6,200 bases of DNA, from IMG/VR virus record IMGVR_UViG_2548876959_000020, positions 1-6,200 of that record; one strand, written 5' to 3'. The stretch's first letter is position 1. Each line of letters starts with the position of its first letter. The notes beneath the pieces were generated by a model. It worked only from the letters and a program-made list of their open reading frames with translations. It had not been told where the DNA came from and ran no database searches. Source of the stretch: a virus (taxonomy: Duplodnaviria > Heunggongvirae > Uroviricota > Caudoviricetes). Positions 1 to 4,952 of this stretch are shown here, piece after piece. The position numbers and the translations under genes are program-made.

Positions 1-969
1 ATGAGTGAAGTAACAGATTTAGTTGTTATTGAAAAAGCAAATGCAATGACTGTATTTCAGCATGCCGACCAGATTGAAGAAATCCTTCAAAAGGTTGAAC
101 GTGAAGTTATGTCCTTTGTGCCTGATATCACAACGGCAAAGGGCAGAAAGGAGATCGCTTCTCTGGCGTATAAAGTTGCGCAGACGAAAACATATCTCGA
201 TGGTATTGGCAAAGACCTTGTTGCTGAACTGAAGGAAATTCCAAAGCTAATTGATGCCAACCGCAAGACAGTGCGCGATCGCCTTGATGAACTGAAAGCC
301 AAGGCGCGCCAGCCTCTTACTGATTATGAGTGGGAGCAGGCACGGATTAAAGCCGAAGAAGAAGCTAAGGCAGCAGCTGAAGCTCTCGCAAAGCAAATTG
401 AGTCTGACCATGAAATAGCGATTTTGATGGATCGCGAATTTGACCGCCAAAGAGAAGAGGCAAGACTCAAAACGGAGCAGGAAAAGCGAGAGCATGAAGA
501 ACGCTTAAAAAGAGAGGCTGAAGAGAAAGCCAGAGCTGAAGCCGAAGCAAAGGCAAAAGCCGAAATTGAAGCAGCAGCAAGGCGAGAAGCAGAAGCTAAG
601 GCCGCAGCGGAACGTGCAGAGCGTGAACGCATTGAAGCCGAGCAACGAGCACAGCGCGAAGCAAAAGAGGCAGCAGAACGAGCTGAAAGAGAAAAGCAGG
701 CAGCAATTGAAGCAGAACGCAGAAAAGCACAGGAGGAGGCTGAACGAATCCGTCGCGAGGCTGAAGCAAAAGAGCAAGCCAGAATAGCAGAAGAAAAAAG
801 AATCAAGGACGAAGAAGAGCGTAGAGCAAAGGATAAAGCTCACCGGAAAGAAGTAAATAACAAAATACTTGCTGACCTTATCAAGGTTGGTGCATCAGAA
901 GATGTTGCTAAAAATATCATAACAGCCATCGTAAAAGGCGAAGTATTCGCAACAAAAATAACCTACTAA
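1..969 (+). CDS. Hypothetical phage protein with a long E/R/K/A-rich charged helix between a globular N-terminal region and a short C-terminal region; function unknown
   Basis: 322-codon ORF, stop TAA 967-969. Residues ~115-280 are almost pure EAKA/ERAE-type repeats. The ATG sits at window position 1, so the true start could lie upstream. Confidence 0.6.
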   Translation: MSEVTDLVVIEKANAMTVFQHADQIEEILQKVEREVMSFVPDITTAKGRKEIASLAYKVAQTKTYLDGIGKDLVAELKEIPKLIDANRKTVRDRLDELKAKARQPLTDYEWEQARIKAEEEAKAAAEALAKQIESDHEIAILMDREFDRQREEARLKTEQEKREHEERLKREAEEKARAEAEAKAKAEIEAAARREAEAKAAAERAERERIEAEQRAQREAKEAAERAEREKQAAIEAERRKAQEEAERIRREAEAKEQARIAEEKRIKDEEERRAKDKAHRKEVNNKILADLIKVGASEDVAKNIITAIVKGEVFATKITY

Positions 970-993: not shown

Positions 994-1125
994 ATGATTT
1001 ACGCAATCGCGGGAGGCGCTCGCATGGGTGCCTTCCAACTAAATGAATCTTTACTTGAACGAATCACCCGTAAATTACGTGACGGATGGAAAAGAGTTGA
1101 GGTCTTATTATGCGCAATGAAATAG
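994..1125 (+). CDS. Small hypothetical protein (43 aa; alternative start ATG 1024 gives 33 aa)
   Basis: AAGGAA at 982-987 ahead of ATG 994. An internal GGGAGG at 1011-1016 sits 7 nt before ATG 1024. Its 3' end overlaps the next gene. Below the ORF-track length cutoff; translated by hand. Confidence 0.3.
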   Translation: MIYAIAGGARMGAFQLNESLLERITRKLRDGWKRVEVLLCAMK

Positions 1126-1262
1126 CCATCAATCACCAGATGCTTCGTGCTGCACAAAACAAAGCAGTAATAGCCAGATTTATTGGTGATTCCAAAATGT
1201 GGCTTGAAGCAAATAAAGCGATGAAATCAGCTATCAACCTTCCGTGGTATCGCAGGAAATGA
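1110..1262 (+). CDS. Small protein (50 aa), possibly a Kil-like host cell-division inhibitor
   Basis: GAGG at 1100-1103, 6 nt before ATG 1110. Translation MRNEIAINHQMLRAAQNKAVIARFIGDSKMWLEANKAMKSAINLPWYRRK. The FIGD-K-M region resembles my recollection of lambda Kil, and the gene sits just upstream of the recombination genes as kil does in lambda. Not verified. Confidence 0.4.
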   Translation: MRNEIAINHQMLRAAQNKAVIARFIGDSKMWLEANKAMKSAINLPWYRRK

Positions 1263-1429
1263 GTTTTACAGATAACTGGTCAGACGAAGAATTCATTCGT
1301 CAGATGAAAGAATTAATCGGTAACGAAGGAGATATTCATGTCACTTGCAACCACAGTGAAGGAGAGCAAGTTACAGAGACGCATGTACACGCAGCAGGCG
1401 TTAATGTATCGCCAGAAGGGAGATCGTGA
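1259..1429 (+). CDS. Small hypothetical protein (56 aa)
   Basis: ATG 1259 overlaps the upstream stop as ATGA (1259-1262). No properly spaced Shine-Dalgarno. Overlaps the better-supported ORF 1338-1508 by 92 nt in another frame, so at most one may be fully real. Confidence 0.3.
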   Translation: MSFTDNWSDEEFIRQMKELIGNEGDIHVTCNHSEGEQVTETHVHAAGVNVSPEGRS

Positions 1430-1508
1430 AGGTGTTCGCGTATTTTTAAATGCGGCAAAGACTGAAGTATTAAATCAGCGTTATTTCCTTGGGCCATGTC
1501 CATTCTGA
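1338..1508 (+). CDS. Small hypothetical protein (56 aa)
   Basis: GAAGGAG at 1325-1331, 6 nt before ATG 1338. Stop TGA 1506-1508 overlaps the RBS of the downstream SSAP gene. Translation MSLATTVKESKLQRRMYTQQALMYRQKGDREGVRVFLNAAKTEVLNQRYFLGPCPF. Not in the ORF track (below cutoff). Confidence 0.4.
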   Translation: MSLATTVKESKLQRRMYTQQALMYRQKGDREGVRVFLNAAKTEVLNQRYFLGPCPF

Positions 1509-1516
1509 GGTGAATT

Positions 1517-2224
1517 ATGGATTTGAATAAATTCGATGAGCCATTCAGCCCTGAAGATATCGAATGGCGAATACAGCAAAGCGGTAAAACACGCGATGGC
1601 AAGGTGTGGGCTATGGTGCTGGCTTATGTCACGAACCGGGCAATCATGAAACGCCTGGACGATGTTTGCGGCAAAGCAGGATGGCGCAATGAATACCGCG
1701 ATATTCCCAACAACGGCGGCGTTGAATGCGGCATATCAATCAAGATTGATTCCGAATGGGTAACCAAATGGGATGCTGCTGAAAACACGCAGGTAGAAGC
1801 CGTCAAAGGCGGTCGTTCCGGTGCAATGAAGCGCGCTGCCGTTCAGTGGGGAATCGGTCGGTATCTGTATAACCTTGAGGAAGGTTTCGCACAAACATCT
1901 CTCGATAAAAAGCAGGGGTGGCACAGGGCAAAACTGAAGGATGGAACAGGATTTTACTGGTCCCCTCCATCGCTGCCGGGATGGGCAATCCCAGCATCAG
2001 ATAACAAACCATCACCAGAAAATACCAACCAGAAATCTCCATCGGTTGACTGCGAACAAATTCTGAAAGAATTCAGCGATTATGTGTCAACAGAAACTGA
2101 CAAGAAAAAACTCATCGAGCGTTATCAGCGTGACTGGCAATTAATGGCTGGAAACGAGGAGGCGCAGGCTAAATGCGTTCAGGTAATGAACATCAGAGTT
2201 AACGAACTAAAACAGGCGGCATAA
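1517..2224 (+). CDS. Rad52/Sak-family single-strand annealing protein (phage recombinase)
   Basis: 235 aa. N-terminal region (WAMVLAYVTNRAIMKRLDDVCGKAGWRNEY ... GGRSGAMKRAAVQWGIGRYLY) matches the Rad52/Rad22 annealing-domain pattern. GAGG at 1507-1510 precedes ATG 1517. Immediately followed by an SSB gene. Confidence 0.75.
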   Translation: MDLNKFDEPFSPEDIEWRIQQSGKTRDGKVWAMVLAYVTNRAIMKRLDDVCGKAGWRNEYRDIPNNGGVECGISIKIDSEWVTKWDAAENTQVEAVKGGRSGAMKRAAVQWGIGRYLYNLEEGFAQTSLDKKQGWHRAKLKDGTGFYWSPPSLPGWAIPASDNKPSPENTNQKSPSVDCEQILKEFSDYVSTETDKKKLIERYQRDWQLMAGNEEAQAKCVQVMNIRVNELKQAA

Positions 2225-2740
2225 ATGGCAATCAGAGGCGTAAATAAGGTGATCATTATTGGTCGCCTTGGGCATGATCCAGAAATCAGATATTCACCAT
2301 CAGGAACGGCATTTGCAAACCTTACAGTTGCTACGTCAGAACAGTGGCGTGATAAGCAAACTGGAGAGCAAAAGGAGCAGACGGAGTGGCACCGTGTGGT
2401 AATGAGCGGGAAACTGGCAGAAATTGCCAGCGAATATCTGCGAAAAGGCTCTGAGGTTTATCTTGAAGGCAAATTGCGGACAAGAAAATGGCAGGATCAA
2501 AGCGGACAGGATCGGTTCACTACCGAAGTCATCGTGGGCGTTGGTGGAACCATGCAAATGCTTGGTGGCAAGCAAGGAGGCAATGAACAGTCTTCACCTC
2601 AGCGAAATAACGGTCAGCAACAAAGACAGCAATCTCAGCAGCAGGGGAATCACAGCGAACCACCTATGGATTTTGACGACGATATCCCCTTTGCACCAGT
2701 AACTCTCCCCTTCCCTCGTCACGCTATTCACGCAATTTAA
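2225..2740 (+). CDS. ssb: Single-stranded DNA-binding protein (prophage SSB) with a C-terminal extension beyond DDDIPF
   Basis: 171 aa. OB-fold region closely resembles E. coli SSB ([48 protein letters not shown]). Q-rich linker, then [11 protein letters not shown] followed by 15 more residues ([15 protein letters not shown]) before TAA. ATG 2225 abuts the upstream stop (TAAATG). Confidence 0.9.
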
Positions 2741-2753
2741 TCAGGAGAAAATC

Positions 2754-3050
2754 ATGCCAGCGCCTCTGTATGGTGCGGATGACGTGCGCCGCTGTTCCGG
2801 CAAATCCGTATCGGAGGTGCTGGATAAATTCAGAAAAAACTACGACCTGATAATGTCTCTACCGCAGGAAACGAAAGAGGAAAAGGAATTTCGCCACTGT
2901 ATATGGCTTGCAGAGAAAGAAGAACGAGAGCGAATTTACCAGACATCAATCCGACCATTCCGCAAAGCCACATATACCCACTTCCCTGAATATATCGACC
3001 CGCGCCTGCGTAATTACCGCTCACGCTATGGCGCTATCAGTAATGACTGA
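2754..3050 (+). CDS. Hypothetical phage protein (98 aa), unknown function
   Basis: AGGAG at 2742-2746 ahead of ATG 2754. Ends TGA 3048-3050. No recognisable motif. Confidence 0.55.
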
Positions 3051-3060
3051 GGAATTTACC

Positions 3061-3228
3061 ATGAGAGGACTTGCATACAATCCCGGCATTCTTCCGGCAG
3101 AAATGATTATTCGCCAACGCGTAAAGCCAATGCCATCGAGAGAGGAATTGCTTAAGAGAAATTCTTTTCCATCAGTGAATCAAAACAAATATCTGAATGC
3201 GATGTGGCGCAAAGGAGGCAACCAGTGA
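3061..3228 (+). CDS. Small hypothetical phage protein (55 aa)
   Basis: GAGGA at 3049-3053, 7 nt before ATG 3061. This is the in-frame 3' part of ORF-track entry 2908..3228, whose longer version would overlap the previous gene by 143 nt. Stop TGA 3226-3228 overlaps the next gene's GTG start. Confidence 0.45.
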
Positions 3229-3815
3229 GCGAAATTAACTATCAGGCACTGCGCGAGGCGGCAGAGAAAGCGACGTGGGGAGACTGGGACTCATATAAAC
3301 CACACCGTGGCGCACGTGGTTATGAGGTCCGACTAAGTAGTCAGGCCATTGCGCAACACGTTCTGAAAAACAACGCTGAATTTATTGCTGCCTTTAATCC
3401 AAAGGTTGCTTTGGCACTACTGGATGAACGGGAAAGAAACCGGCAATACATCAAACGCCGCGACCAGGAGAACGAGGATATTGCGCTAACGGTAGGGAAG
3501 CTGCGTGTTGAGCGGGAGGCAGCAAAAAAACGCATAGCAGAACTGGAAGCCGAACTCGTAAGCCAAACTTACAAGTTGAACGAGCTATCGGGCAACTCTC
3601 CGGTAACTCCGGATGGTTGGATAAGCTGTAGTGAGCGAATGCCGGATACCAAAACAGCCGTTCTTGTTGCCAGGGAGTTTGACAGGAAAGGTGACTGGCG
3701 AATGAAATGGGCGACTTACATCCCGGGTCATCCTGACGCTAATGATGGGTGGATAATTCCTGGTGCGTCGTGGAAACCGTCACACTGGATGCCGCTACCA
3801 GAGCCTCCACTTTGA
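3225..3815 (+). CDS. Ead/Ea22-like N-terminal domain fused to a DUF551 C-terminal domain (phage early protein)
   Basis: AGGAGG at 3213-3218, 6 nt before GTG 3225 (the ORF track uses GTG 3204). N-terminus shows Ead/Ea22-like motifs ([32 protein letters not shown]) followed by a coiled coil. C-terminus ([11 protein letters not shown]...WMPLPEPP) looks like DUF551. Confidence 0.7.
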
Positions 3816-3911
3816 AAGCGAAGCTTATACATATCTTTTACATCAGCAATCTATTGTTAATCTCCAATCAATGTTACGTTGTCATCTCACTCATGCTTTG
3901 GAGGTAGTGAT

Positions 3912-4091
3912 ATGTCTTGTCCAAAATGCGGTTCTGGAAATATTGCAAAAGAAAAAACAATGCGTGGATGGTCTGGTGATTATGTGTGCTGCGATTGCGG
4001 ATACAACGACTCTAAAGACGCATTTGGAGAGCGTGGTAAAAACGAGTTTGTTAAAATTAATAAAGAACGCGAAGGCAACGAAAAAAGCTAA
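3912..4091 (+). CDS. Small zinc-ribbon protein (59 aa; CPKC ... CCDC)
   Basis: GGAGG just upstream of ATG 3912. Two Cys pairs (C-P-K-C and C-C-D-C) 19 residues apart, Lys/Glu-rich tail. The ORF track's ATG 3879 start would place the RBS inside the gene. Confidence 0.55.
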   Translation: MSCPKCGSGNIAKEKTMRGWSGDYVCCDCGYNDSKDAFGERGKNEFVKINKEREGNEKS

Positions 4092-4156
4092 TTTATTTAT
4101 TCATATATGAAAACAATGTAACCAATATTCGAATTGAAGAACTGAAAGAACACCAA

Positions 4157-4180
4157 GCCGCCTGATGGCGGTTTTTTATT
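4157..4180 (+). terminator. Putative Rho-independent terminator after the zinc-ribbon gene
   Basis: GC-rich hairpin GCCGCC-TGAT-GGCGG followed by TTTTTTATT, 66 nt downstream of the stop at 4091. Confidence 0.5.
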
Positions 4181-4222: not shown

Positions 4223-4423
4223 ATGCAACACGAACTACAGCCTGATTCACTGGTTGATTTGAAATTCATCATGGCTGATACTGGCTTCGGTAAGACCTTC
4301 ATCTATGACCGGATTAAGTCCGGCGACCTGCCAAAAGCCAAAGTTATCCACGGTCGAGCAAGATGGTTATATCGCGACCATTGTGAATTCAAAAATAAGC
4401 TCTTAAGCCGCGCCAATGGGTAA
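4223..4423 (+). CDS. torI: TorI-type excisionase / recombination directionality factor (AlpA/Xis family winged helix)
   Basis: 66 aa, MQHELQPDSLVDLKFIMADTGFGKTFIYDRIKSGDLPKAKVIHGRARWLYRDHCEF..., which I recognise as E. coli TorI (the KplE1 excisionase). GGAG is 9 nt before the ATG. Lies immediately before the att core. Confidence 0.8.
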   Translation: MQHELQPDSLVDLKFIMADTGFGKTFIYDRIKSGDLPKAKVIHGRARWLYRDHCEFKNKLLSRANG

Positions 4424-4496
4424 AATAGCGGGTAAAATATTTCTCACATCTAAAAAACACCATTCCAATCAATCCCCTGCCGCTTCAAGTAGATGT

Positions 4497-4511
4497 CTGC
4501 AGGGGACACCA
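4497..4511 (+). other. attR core: copy of the 3' end of tRNA-Arg (argW), CTGCAGGGGACACCA
   Basis: 15-nt identity to the T-stem 3' strand, acceptor 3' strand and CCA end of argW. No upstream tRNA body is present, so this is an attachment-site repeat, not a tRNA gene. Confidence 0.7.
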
Positions 4512-4952
4512 GATACCCTTCAAACGAAATCTACCTTCACCCCGTAAAAGATGGGTTTGGCAGCACACTTGCCTTATATCTACTCATTTTTACTGCAACA
4601 GGTTGAAATCTCAGCACTGTCAGAAAGCGCTGATGACTAAACAGCCCTGGGCCGGGCGATGTAACCATCACACAGAATCCTGATAGCGAAATATGGCGTG
4701 ACTCGATACTTCACTCCGCAATGCATTCCTTGATGAATTCGCAGGACCGTGATACACGGGACAGGTCACTGAATGACGACAATGTCCTGGAAATCAGCGA
4801 ACCGCGCATCTGAAGTACATTTGAGCGACTGTACCAGAACATGAATGAGGCGTTTGGATTAGGCGATTATTAGCAGGGCTAAGCATTTTACTATTATTAT
4901 TTTCCGGTTGAGGGATATAGAGCTATCGACAACAACCGGAAAAAGTTTACGT

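What the first reader, a model, noticed from the sequence alone, without database searches (positions are those of the whole stretch)
2754..3228. Orphan two-gene cassette in the accessory slot between ssb and the ea22-like gene
A 98-aa protein with a strong RBS is followed by a 55-aa protein, and the second gene's stop overlaps the GTG start of the downstream gene. Neither shows a motif I recognise. In lambdoid phages this position in the early-left operon carries variable cargo that includes anti-restriction, anti-defence and host-modulating genes. Tight coupling of a larger and a smaller protein is also the layout of toxin-antitoxin-like or inhibitor-chaperone pairs. This is a hypothesis, not a demonstrated system.
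Basis: inference. Interest (0 to 1): 0.45.

Follow-up and report, generated by a model that had tools for sequence, protein, structure and literature searches.

The report
Phage abc2 and its DUF2737 neighbour
The "orphan" pair is the well-known phage P22 gene abc2, whose protein hijacks the host RecBCD nuclease, followed by its usual small neighbour of unknown function (P22 orf56, family DUF2737); it is an ordinary, already annotated part of lambdoid prophages and not a toxin-antitoxin pair.

Summary
Each has a good Shine-Dalgarno site, and the second gene's stop overlaps the next gene's start (GTGA).

They are not orphans. The 98-aa protein is Abc2, the P22 anti-RecBCD protein (Pfam PF11043, E=4e-61). 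It is about 92% identical to P22 Abc2, whose cryo-EM structure on RecBCD is solved (8B1T). The RecC-binding region and Pro68 are conserved.

The 55-aa protein belongs to DUF2737 (PF10930, E=9e-32). This is the same gene as P22 orf56 and HK97 gp38, and no function is known. RefSeq already names both genes.

- **Linkage:** all 79 testable Abc2-seeded loci have DUF2737 downstream.
- **Not obligate:** 9 of 80 DUF2737-seeded loci lack Abc2. A 93-aa gene is often inserted between the two. About 480 virulent Guernseyvirinae phage records match only the DUF2737 core, and the two examined show no Abc2 nearby.
- **No co-variation:** alleles of the two genes reassort freely (r=-0.09).
- **No defence or TA signal:** neither protein matches a toxin, antitoxin or defence family.

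Verdict: a known P22/HK75-type recombination module. The toxin-antitoxin and inhibitor-chaperone readings are not supported. The function of DUF2737 is the only open point.

The parts
2754..3050 (+). abc2: 98-aa anti-RecBCD protein 2 (Abc2), with RBS AGGAG at 2743-2747
   Evidence: Pfam PF11043 E=4.1e-61, 203.6 bits, full length; phrog_656 'abc2 anti-RecBCD' E=6.5e-56. PDB 8b1t_A/8b1u 'Anti-RecBCD protein 2' E=2.3e-55. 91.8% identical to P22 abc2. In residues 1-76 only positions 11, 17, 65 and 76 differ from P22, and Pro68 is present. RefSeq names the B7A counterpart 'phage anti-RecBCD protein'.
3061..3228 (+). 55-aa DUF2737 protein (same gene as P22 orf56/gp33, HK97 gp38, HK75 gp29). It is basic (pI 11.0). 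Its RBS GAGGA at 3049-3053 overlaps the abc2 stop codon.
   Evidence: Pfam PF10930 E=9.1e-32; phrog_1117 (unknown function) E=2.1e-37. 77% identical to P22 orf56 and 92% to HK97 gp38. No PDB sequence match. AlphaFold model has mean pLDDT 70 and pTM 0.28, with three short helices and no fold match. dN/dS is 0.18.
3225..3815 (+). Downstream Ead/Ea22-like + DUF551 gene. Its GTG start overlaps the DUF2737 stop (GTGA), and AAGGAGG lies at 3212-3218.
   Evidence: PF13935 E=6e-29 and PF04448 E=2e-21; sequence context.
2225..2740 (+). Phage ssb, immediately upstream. It occupies the place that abc1 holds in P22.
   Evidence: PF00436 E=2e-38; phrog_44; compare the P22 gene map.
1517..2224 (+). Single-strand annealing protein (Erf-like / Rad52-Rad22 family), the recombinase that Abc2-modified RecBCD is thought to serve.
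   Evidence: PF04098 E=5e-26; phrog_1097 'Erf-like ssDNA annealing protein' E=2e-129.
1259..1429 (+). 56-aa acidic protein at the Arf position of the recombination module, identical to HK75 gp33.
   Evidence: phrog_2123 E=5e-40; 56/56 identical to HK75_33.
1110..1262 (+). kil, which marks the proximal end of the recombination module in the PL operon.
   Evidence: PF06301 E=1.7e-20.
4155..4174 (+). First terminator-like hairpin downstream. No promoter-like or terminator-like site lies between 2200 and 4150, so abc2 and DUF2737 sit inside one long transcript.
   Evidence: Consensus scan.

Best explanation
The region is the distal end of a P22/HK75-type recombination module in the early-left (PL) operon of a lambdoid prophage. 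The gene order is kil, gp33/Arf-position gene, Erf-like annealing protein, SSB, Abc2, DUF2737.

The 98-aa protein is Abc2. [quoted passage not shown] Its Pro68 engages the host prolyl isomerase PpiB. The modified enzyme keeps unwinding and resecting DNA but no longer responds to Chi. It is thought to hand its single-stranded product to the phage annealing protein instead of RecA. This protects the phage and feeds its recombination-dependent replication.

The 55-aa protein is the conserved small basic DUF2737 protein that follows abc2 in P22, HK97, HK75, Sf6 and hundreds of prophages. My inference is that it is a separate module that binds some partner as an extended peptide. It appears to be kept at the boundary between the recombination module and the 'ea' accessory genes, and is not an obligate partner, antidote or chaperone of Abc2. 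Both genes are transcribed from PL. The compact spacing (a 10-nt gap, then a GTGA overlap) is ordinary operon packing.

Shown here: the identity of both proteins, the synteny, the co-occurrence figures and purifying selection. Inferred: the biochemical activity of this Abc2 copy, and the independence and mode of action of DUF2737.
For: - **Abc2 identity:** Pfam, PHROG and PDB matches; 92% identity to P22 Abc2; RecC-binding residues 6-52 differ at only two positions and Pro68 is kept.
- **Abc2 mechanism:** taken from the RecBCD-Abc2-PpiB cryo-EM paper and the earlier work it summarises (PMC9836394).
- **Same gene order elsewhere:** P22 has abc2-orf56-eaE with the same overlap. HK97 has gp39-gp38. 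HK75 has gp33-Erf-SSB-Abc2-DUF2737. RefSeq annotation of E. coli B7A names both genes.
- **Co-occurrence:** 79 of 79 Abc2-seeded IMG/VR loci with enough downstream sequence carry DUF2737 downstream. All 6 genome loci do too. The phage collection holds 225 full-length Abc2 matches and 221 full-length DUF2737 matches. Adjacency persists even with a 32%-identical Abc2-like protein.
- **DUF2737 independence:** 9 of 80 DUF2737-seeded loci have RecT, Sipho_Gp157 and an Abc1-like gene upstream and no Abc2. A 45%-identical homologue follows a DNA methylase in a RecT-type prophage. About 480 phage records, those sampled being virulent Guernseyvirinae, match only the DUF2737 core; in the two examined it sits among small genes after the lysis cassette (next to a NinH-like gene in one), with no Abc2 in the 3.5 kb fetched on either side. 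A 93-aa gene separates the pair in 19 of 79 loci. Alleles reassort, with r=-0.09 over 112 combinations.
- **One transcript:** no internal promoter or terminator was found.
Against: No experiment on this copy was possible. The IMG/VR loci sampled are close relatives of the query (95% identity or more to whichever protein seeded them), so the 79/79 figure counts many related prophages and not independent events. The near-universal presence of DUF2737 after abc2 could reflect a functional tie that these data cannot see. The structure model of DUF2737 is of low confidence, so 'extended peptide-like binder' is weakly based. The Abc2 hand-off to Erf is itself a model that has not been demonstrated directly.
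Confidence: 0.85

Rival explanations
1. DUF2737 is a functional accessory of the Abc2-type RecBCD hijack. It might tune the Abc2-RecBCD-PpiB complex or help load the annealing protein, which would explain why it is kept next to abc2.
For: Abc2 is followed by DUF2737 in 79/79 IMG/VR loci and 6/6 genome loci. The same holds in every phage record that appears in both lists (P22, UAB_Phi20, Oslo, JEP4, SI8, PDP110P2). It also holds for a 32%-identical Abc2-like protein. In loci without Abc2 it still sits at the distal end of a recombination module (RecT plus Sipho_Gp157, which has a weak Mu-Gam-like hit).
Against: The alleles do not co-vary (r=-0.09). Another gene is often inserted between the two. 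DUF2737-like proteins occur in virulent Guernseyvirinae away from any recombination gene, and the two examined have no Abc2 nearby. The published biochemistry and cryo-EM of Abc2 read here do not mention orf56. The preprint's definition of the HK75 recombination locus (Gp33, Erf, Gp31, Abc2) leaves it out.
Confidence: 0.15
2. DUF2737 is an independent counter-defence or host-takeover factor. It would belong to the 'anti-defence hotspot' next to phage recombination genes, for example by neutralising a host system that senses RecBCD manipulation.
For: The preprint read places an OLD trigger (HK75 gp33, identical to window 1259-1429) in this locus. It also places an OLD inhibitor there (Oad2, which is HK446 gp27 and EaE-related) and calls the region an anti-defence hotspot. 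DUF2737 is small, basic, under purifying selection, lacks a confidently predicted globular fold, and is shared by temperate and virulent phages.
Against: There is no direct evidence. The reported HK446 library screen for OLD inhibitors recovered gp27 only. There are no PADLOC hits, though that library covers defence proteins and not anti-defence proteins. No target is known.
Confidence: 0.25
3. The two genes form a toxin-antitoxin-like or inhibitor-chaperone pair.
For: Only the layout supports this: a larger and a smaller ORF, tightly spaced, recurring together.
Against: The larger protein is Abc2, a RecC-binding modulator with a solved structure. Neither protein hits a toxin, antitoxin or defence family. 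No promoter-like site precedes the pair. DUF2737 occurs without Abc2. The pair is split by an inserted gene in about a quarter of loci. There is no cognate co-variation. Per the paper read, Abc2 has been expressed in E. coli; that it is tolerated there without orf56 is my inference, since orf56 is not mentioned.
Confidence: 0.02

Closest known systems
Salmonella phage P22 abc2 (P22gp34) and orf56 (P22gp33)
   Same: The two genes are homologous and in the same order. The spacing is the same, and the small gene overlaps the start of the next 'ea' gene. Both lie in the PL operon after kil, arf and the annealing protein. Abc2 is 92% identical and the small protein 77% identical.
   Different: P22 has abc1 between erf and abc2, where the window has ssb. 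The annealing protein is the 235-aa Erf-like/Rad52 type, not P22 Erf. The downstream gene is Ead/Ea22-DUF551, not eaE.
Escherichia phage HK75 recombination locus (gp33, Erf-like gp32, SSB gp31, Abc2 gp30, DUF2737 gp29)
   Same: The gene order from kil to DUF2737 is identical gene for gene. gp33 is 100% identical to window 1259-1429. The HK75 stretch from ssb to the DUF2737 gene is about 84% identical in DNA to the window.
   Different: The genes downstream of DUF2737 differ, as does the integration module. HK75 has int next to xis, while the window has a torI-type excisionase next to cscB.
Lambda Gam and T7 gp5.9 (other phage RecBCD antagonists)
   Same: They have the same target enzyme and the same biological purpose: protecting linear phage DNA and favouring phage recombination.
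   Different: Gam and gp5.9 are DNA mimics that block the DNA-binding site and shut RecBCD down. Abc2 binds RecC and leaves helicase-nuclease activity largely intact. There is no sequence relationship.
Type II toxin-antitoxin modules
   Same: Two small adjacent co-transcribed genes.
   Different: There is no family membership, no own promoter, no obligate pairing and no co-variation. The larger protein has a different, established function.

Membership tests
Abc2 / Anti-RecBCD protein 2 (Pfam PF11043) | Full-length match to the family profile above the curated cut-off | tested here: met
   203.6 bits against a cut-off of 25; residues 1-98 align to profile positions 1-97 of 97. phrog_656 E=6.5e-56.
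Abc2 / Anti-RecBCD protein 2 (Pfam PF11043) | Close similarity to the experimentally characterised P22 protein with a solved RecBCD complex | tested here: met
   PDB 8b1t_A/8b1u E=2.3e-55, aligned end to end; 91.8% identity to P22 abc2.
Abc2 / Anti-RecBCD protein 2 (Pfam PF11043) | Conserved RecC-binding helical region (modelled residues 6-52, or 3-66 in the PpiB-bound complex) and Pro68 at the PpiB active site | tested here: met
   Only P11V, N17K and A65S differ within residues 1-66, and Pro68 is present. The structural roles are taken from PMC9836394.
Abc2 / Anti-RecBCD protein 2 (Pfam PF11043) | Location in the PL-operon recombination module, downstream of a single-strand annealing protein, with no phage exonuclease in the module | tested here: met
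   The order is kil, gp33, Erf-like, ssb, abc2, with no exonuclease ORF between 1110 and 3050. The rule that Abc2 phages lack an exonuclease is stated. Some relatives do carry a 3'-5' exonuclease next to ssb.
Abc2 / Anti-RecBCD protein 2 (Pfam PF11043) | Binds RecC and abolishes the Chi response of RecBCD | not testable with these tools
   This needs biochemistry or genetics. It is inferred from 92% identity to the characterised protein.
DUF2737 (Pfam PF10930; P22 orf56 / HK97 gp38) | Match to the family profile above the curated cut-off | tested here: met
   109.2 bits against a cut-off of 25; residues 1-51 align to profile positions 1-51 of 53. phrog_1117 E=2.1e-37.
DUF2737 (Pfam PF10930; P22 orf56 / HK97 gp38) | Conserved core motif P-x-P-[ST][19 protein letters not shown] | tested here: met
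   R33, S35 and F36 are invariant, and E29, N34, N42 and L45 are at least 90% conserved, across 31 sequences down to 40% identity.
DUF2737 (Pfam PF10930; P22 orf56 / HK97 gp38) | A defined molecular function | not testable with these tools
   The family has none. There is one incidental literature mention, no PDB relative and no fold match.
Type II toxin-antitoxin pair | At least one partner belongs to a known toxin or antitoxin family | tested here: not met
   Pfam, PADLOC and NCBIfam give no such hit for either protein.
Type II toxin-antitoxin pair | The partners always occur together and co-vary as cognate pairs | tested here: not met
   9 of 80 DUF2737-seeded loci lack Abc2. 19 of 79 Abc2-seeded loci have another gene between the two. 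The DUF2737 core occurs in virulent phages, and the two examined have no Abc2 nearby. Distance correlation is r=-0.09.
Type II toxin-antitoxin pair | Own autoregulated promoter upstream of the pair | tested here: not met
   There is no sigma-70-like site between 2200 and 4150. abc2 starts 13 nt after the ssb stop. A consensus scan is weak evidence.
Type II toxin-antitoxin pair | One protein is toxic and the other neutralises it | not testable with these tools
   This needs single-expression versus co-expression tests. Published work describes Abc2 expression in E. coli and does not mention orf56.

The most novel reading that the evidence does not exclude
DUF2737 is not a passenger. It would be a conserved small effector tied to phage manipulation of RecBCD, for instance a factor that masks the RecBCD-compromised state from host sentinels (OLD, some retrons and similar systems). 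That could account for its place at the distal end of both Abc2-type and RecT/Gp157-type recombination modules and its presence in virulent Guernseyvirinae.
Probability: 0.12. Interest if true: 0.5.

Novelty: already known. Interest (0 to 1): 0.12.

Why it matters
As found, this matters little. It corrects a missed annotation and shows that the window carries a standard HK75/P22-type recombination module. The residual value lies in DUF2737. This small protein is under purifying selection and follows Abc2 in every locus I could test, yet it has no assigned function. It sits in a region that recent work describes as a hotspot of conflict between phage recombination genes and host immunity. A simple deletion or expression test could give it a function.

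Tried and rejected
- **Toxin-antitoxin or inhibitor-chaperone reading.** Rejected. No family hits, pairing not obligate, no co-variation.
- **Solved-structure and fold search for the 55-aa protein.** No PDB sequence hit. The AlphaFold model has pLDDT 70 and pTM 0.28. Foldseek against the PDB gave only a meaningless match at E=8.8. No fold assignment is possible.
- **Longer proteins containing DUF2737** (P0121-P0128). I examined them as possible informative fusions. They look like read-through, deletion or gene-calling artefacts, for example an Erf N-terminus joined through the out-of-frame abc2 region. I did not use them.
- **Non-coding features.** Rfam scan of the whole window found no RNA family. 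tRNA scan found none. No Chi site is present, but only 0.12 are expected in 6.2 kb, so this says nothing.
- **Window ORF 1-969 as Gad1.** Tested because Gad1 occupies that position in L176. There is no similarity and no Pfam hit.
- **Literature.** 'DUF2737' occurs in one unrelated paper. 'orf56' with P22 and abc2 gave only annotation tables listing the homologue as unknown.

Full report
**1. Observation**

The window's ORF table and sequence confirm a 98-aa ORF at 2754-3050 and a 55-aa ORF at 3061-3228.

- AGGAG lies at 2743-2747, 6 nt before the first ATG.
- GAGGA at 3049-3053 overlaps the first gene's TGA and lies 7 nt before the second ATG.
- The second gene's TGA (3226-3228) overlaps a GTG at 3225 as GTGA.
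- That GTG is preceded by AAGGAGG at 3212-3218. It opens the Ead/Ea22-DUF551 reading frame.

Both ORFs are real genes. They score far above the Pfam cut-offs. Across 75 to 94 distinct homologous coding sequences from related loci, the median dN/dS is 0.17 for the first gene and 0.18 for the second.

**2. What the genes are**

The 98-aa protein is Abc2, the anti-RecBCD protein 2 of Salmonella phage P22.

- Pfam PF11043 gives E=4e-61 over the full length, and phrog_656 is 'abc2 anti-RecBCD'.
- It matches PDB chains 8b1t_A/8b1u, 'Anti-RecBCD protein 2', end to end at E=2e-55.
- It is 91.8% identical to P22 abc2.
- Within residues 1-76 it differs from P22 Abc2 only at positions 11, 17, 65 and 76. 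Pro68 is present.

The 55-aa protein belongs to DUF2737 (PF10930, E=9e-32; phrog_1117, unknown function).

- It is 77% identical to P22 orf56 (P22gp33) and 92% identical to HK97 gp38.
- RefSeq annotation of a near-identical prophage in E. coli B7A already names the two genes 'phage anti-RecBCD protein' and 'DUF2737 family protein'.

**3. Context**

The window is the left arm of a lambdoid prophage. The gene order is:

- a coiled-coil ORF (1-969)
- cIII (994-1125)
- kil (1110-1262)
- a 56-aa acidic protein (1259-1429)
- an Erf-like/Rad52-family annealing protein (1517-2224)
- ssb (2225-2740)
- abc2
- the DUF2737 gene
- an ea22-like gene
- a zinc-ribbon ORF
- a terminator-like hairpin (4155-4174)
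- a torI-type excisionase (4223-4423)
- the chromosomal cscB gene

P22 has kil-arf-erf-abc1-abc2-orf56-eaE, with orf56 overlapping the eaE start. HK97 has erf-gp40-abc2(gp39)-gp38. HK75 has exactly the window's order: gp33, Erf-like, SSB, Abc2, DUF2737.

No promoter-like or terminator-like site lies between 2200 and 4150. No Rfam family or tRNA is present. The pair is therefore an internal part of the PL transcript and not a self-contained cassette.

**4. Co-occurrence**

In the phage collection, tblastn finds full-length Abc2 in 225 records and full-length DUF2737 in 221 records. Every record that appears in both printed lists has the two matches 13 nt apart. These are P22, UAB_Phi20, Oslo, JEP4, SI8 and PDP110P2.

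In 80 IMG/VR loci seeded with Abc2, 79 have enough downstream sequence to test, and all 79 carry DUF2737 downstream:

- 55 have a 10-nt spacer.
- 5 have a 14-nt spacer.
- 19 have a 297-nt spacer, filled by a 93-aa DUF5405-like ORF.

All six loci from the species-representative genome collection also have DUF2737 downstream. A divergent prophage (L176) carries a 99-aa protein only 32% identical to Abc2. It is followed by the DUF5405-like ORF and a 51%-identical DUF2737.

In the other direction the link is looser.

- Of 80 loci seeded with DUF2737, 71 have Abc2 upstream. The other 9 have RecT, Sipho_Gp157 and an Abc1-like protein instead.
- A 45%-identical DUF2737 follows a DNA methylase in a RecT-type prophage.
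- About 480 records match only the DUF2737 core (residues 23-51). Those sampled are virulent Guernseyvirinae (Jerseyvirus, Kagunavirus).
- In the two I examined, the gene sits in a cluster of small genes after the lysis cassette, next to a NinH-like gene in one. No Abc2 is annotated in the 3.5 kb fetched on either side.

Over 112 distinct Abc2/DUF2737 protein combinations, pairwise distances of the two proteins are uncorrelated (r=-0.09). There are 393 comparisons in which near-identical DUF2737 is paired with Abc2 alleles at least 25% apart.

So adjacency is conserved but the alleles reassort freely. The sampled loci are close relatives, so the counts overstate the number of independent events.

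**5. Mechanism**

For Abc2 I rely on the paper read (eLife 2022, PMC9836394) and the earlier work it summarises.

- Abc2 is an extended helical protein that binds the Chi-recognition ('inactivated helicase') domains of RecC. It sits near the latch helix and the proposed exit channel for the recombinogenic ssDNA loop.
- It barely changes RecBCD helicase-nuclease activity in vitro.
- It makes the enzyme unresponsive to Chi, with up-regulated 5'-strand cutting.
- Its Pro68 sits in the active site of host PpiB.
- It is proposed to redirect recombinase loading from RecA to the phage annealing protein. This hand-off is a model and has not been shown directly.
- Phages with Abc2 typically lack their own exonuclease, and this window's module also lacks one.

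Because the window protein keeps the RecC-binding region and Pro68, I infer the same action on E. coli RecBCD.

For DUF2737 no function is known. It is basic (pI 11.0) and rich in proline. The model shows three short helices at mean pLDDT 70 and pTM 0.28, with no structural neighbour. R33, S35 and F36 are invariant and N34 nearly so, within a conserved core [19 protein letters not shown].

My inference is that it works by binding a partner as an extended peptide, and that it is a module of its own. The reasons are that it occurs without Abc2, can be separated from it, and does not co-vary with it. The published accounts of Abc2 activity read here also do not mention it.

**6. Rivals**

- **Accessory role in the Abc2 hijack.** This remains possible because Abc2 is always followed by DUF2737. 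I give it 0.15.
- **Independent counter-defence role.** This is plausible given a 2026 preprint. It reports HK75 gp33 as a trigger of the P2 OLD system and an EaE-related protein (Oad2, HK446 gp27) as an OLD inhibitor. It calls this region an anti-defence hotspot. As reported, the library screen for OLD inhibitors recovered only gp27. I give this 0.25. It overlaps with the 'independent module' part of the best explanation.
- **Toxin-antitoxin or inhibitor-chaperone.** This is effectively excluded (0.02). There are no family hits, no own promoter, no obligate pairing and no co-variation.

**7. Comparison with the known, and novelty**

The pair is the same as P22 abc2-orf56, HK97 gp39-gp38 and HK75 gp30-gp29. 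All testable defining features of Abc2 membership are met. Only the biochemical activity could not be tested.

Nothing here departs from what is annotated in hundreds of phage and E. coli records, so the finding is already known. The one open point, the function of DUF2737, belongs to the whole family and not to this locus.

**8. Verdict**

Interest is 0.12.

The most novel reading not excluded is that DUF2737 is a RecBCD-linked or counter-sentinel effector. I put its probability at about 0.12, with interest of about 0.5 if true.

Noticed in passing
window 1259-1429 (+), overlapping 1338-1508 (+): A 56-aa acidic protein (pI 4.6) is 100% identical to HK75 gp33. A 2026 preprint reports that protein as sufficient to trigger the P2 OLD abortive-infection nuclease. 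RefSeq annotation of the near-identical E. coli B7A prophage instead calls an overlapping ORF in another frame, which corresponds to window 1338-1508. The PHROG match (E=5e-40) favours the 1259-1429 frame, so the RefSeq call may be a mis-annotation.
   Followed up: partly
window 1-969 (+): A 322-aa protein has a long Glu/Ala/Lys/Arg coiled-coil centre (phrog_1376, unknown function; no Pfam hit). RefSeq labels it variously 'coiled-coil domain-containing' or 'TolA'. It sits just upstream of cIII/kil, the position that Gad1 (Gabija anti-defence 1, PF25705) holds in a divergent prophage (L176 166-1140). The two show no sequence similarity.
   Followed up: partly
window 4223-4950: The excisionase-like gene is annotated as torI in the B7A counterpart. 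It is followed by about 530 nt of non-coding DNA and then cscB. No integrase and no tRNA lie in between. This fits a KplE1-type prophage, in which the integrase lies at the opposite end (from my own knowledge, not tested).
   Followed up: no
L061 3714-4004; L060 3723-4004; L176 3717-3998: A 93-aa DUF5405-like ORF (PF17399, E=5e-6) is inserted exactly between abc2 and the DUF2737 gene in 19 of 79 Abc2-seeded loci. It also precedes DUF2737 in some loci that lack Abc2.
   Followed up: partly
L176 3407-3706: A 99-aa protein is 32% identical to Abc2 (pairwise E=2e-13) but falls below the Pfam cut-off (19.6 against 25 bits). It keeps the N-terminal M-x-APL...CS motif and the C-terminal D-x-R-[LM]-RNY motif. 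It appears to be a remote Abc2 clade that the Pfam gathering threshold would miss.
   Followed up: partly
L088 3441-3596 (Salmonella phage vB_SenS-Ent1 gp55); L089 3501-3599 (K1ind1, unannotated): About 480 phage records match only the conserved DUF2737 core. Those sampled are virulent Guernseyvirinae phages of Salmonella and E. coli. In the two examined, the gene lies in a cluster of small genes after the lysis cassette, next to a NinH-like gene in Ent1. In K1ind1 the ORF is not annotated.
   Followed up: partly
proteins P0001 and P0002 (E. coli): These DUF2737 variants carry an internal tandem duplication of the segment (AEM)[12 protein letters not shown], giving 67-70 aa.
   Followed up: no
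window 3879-4091 (+): A zinc-ribbon ORF (phrog_2945, unknown function) has a weak, sub-threshold hit to the restriction-alleviation protein Lar (PF14354, E=1.2e-4, 22.7 against 28.6 bits) and to small archaeal zinc-finger proteins.
   Followed up: no
L060 2892-3380; L172 1763-2245: In RecT-type modules that carry DUF2737 without Abc2, a Sipho_Gp157 protein follows RecT. It has a weak Mu-Gam-like hit (PF07352, E=0.003). It may be the nuclease antagonist of those modules.
   Followed up: no
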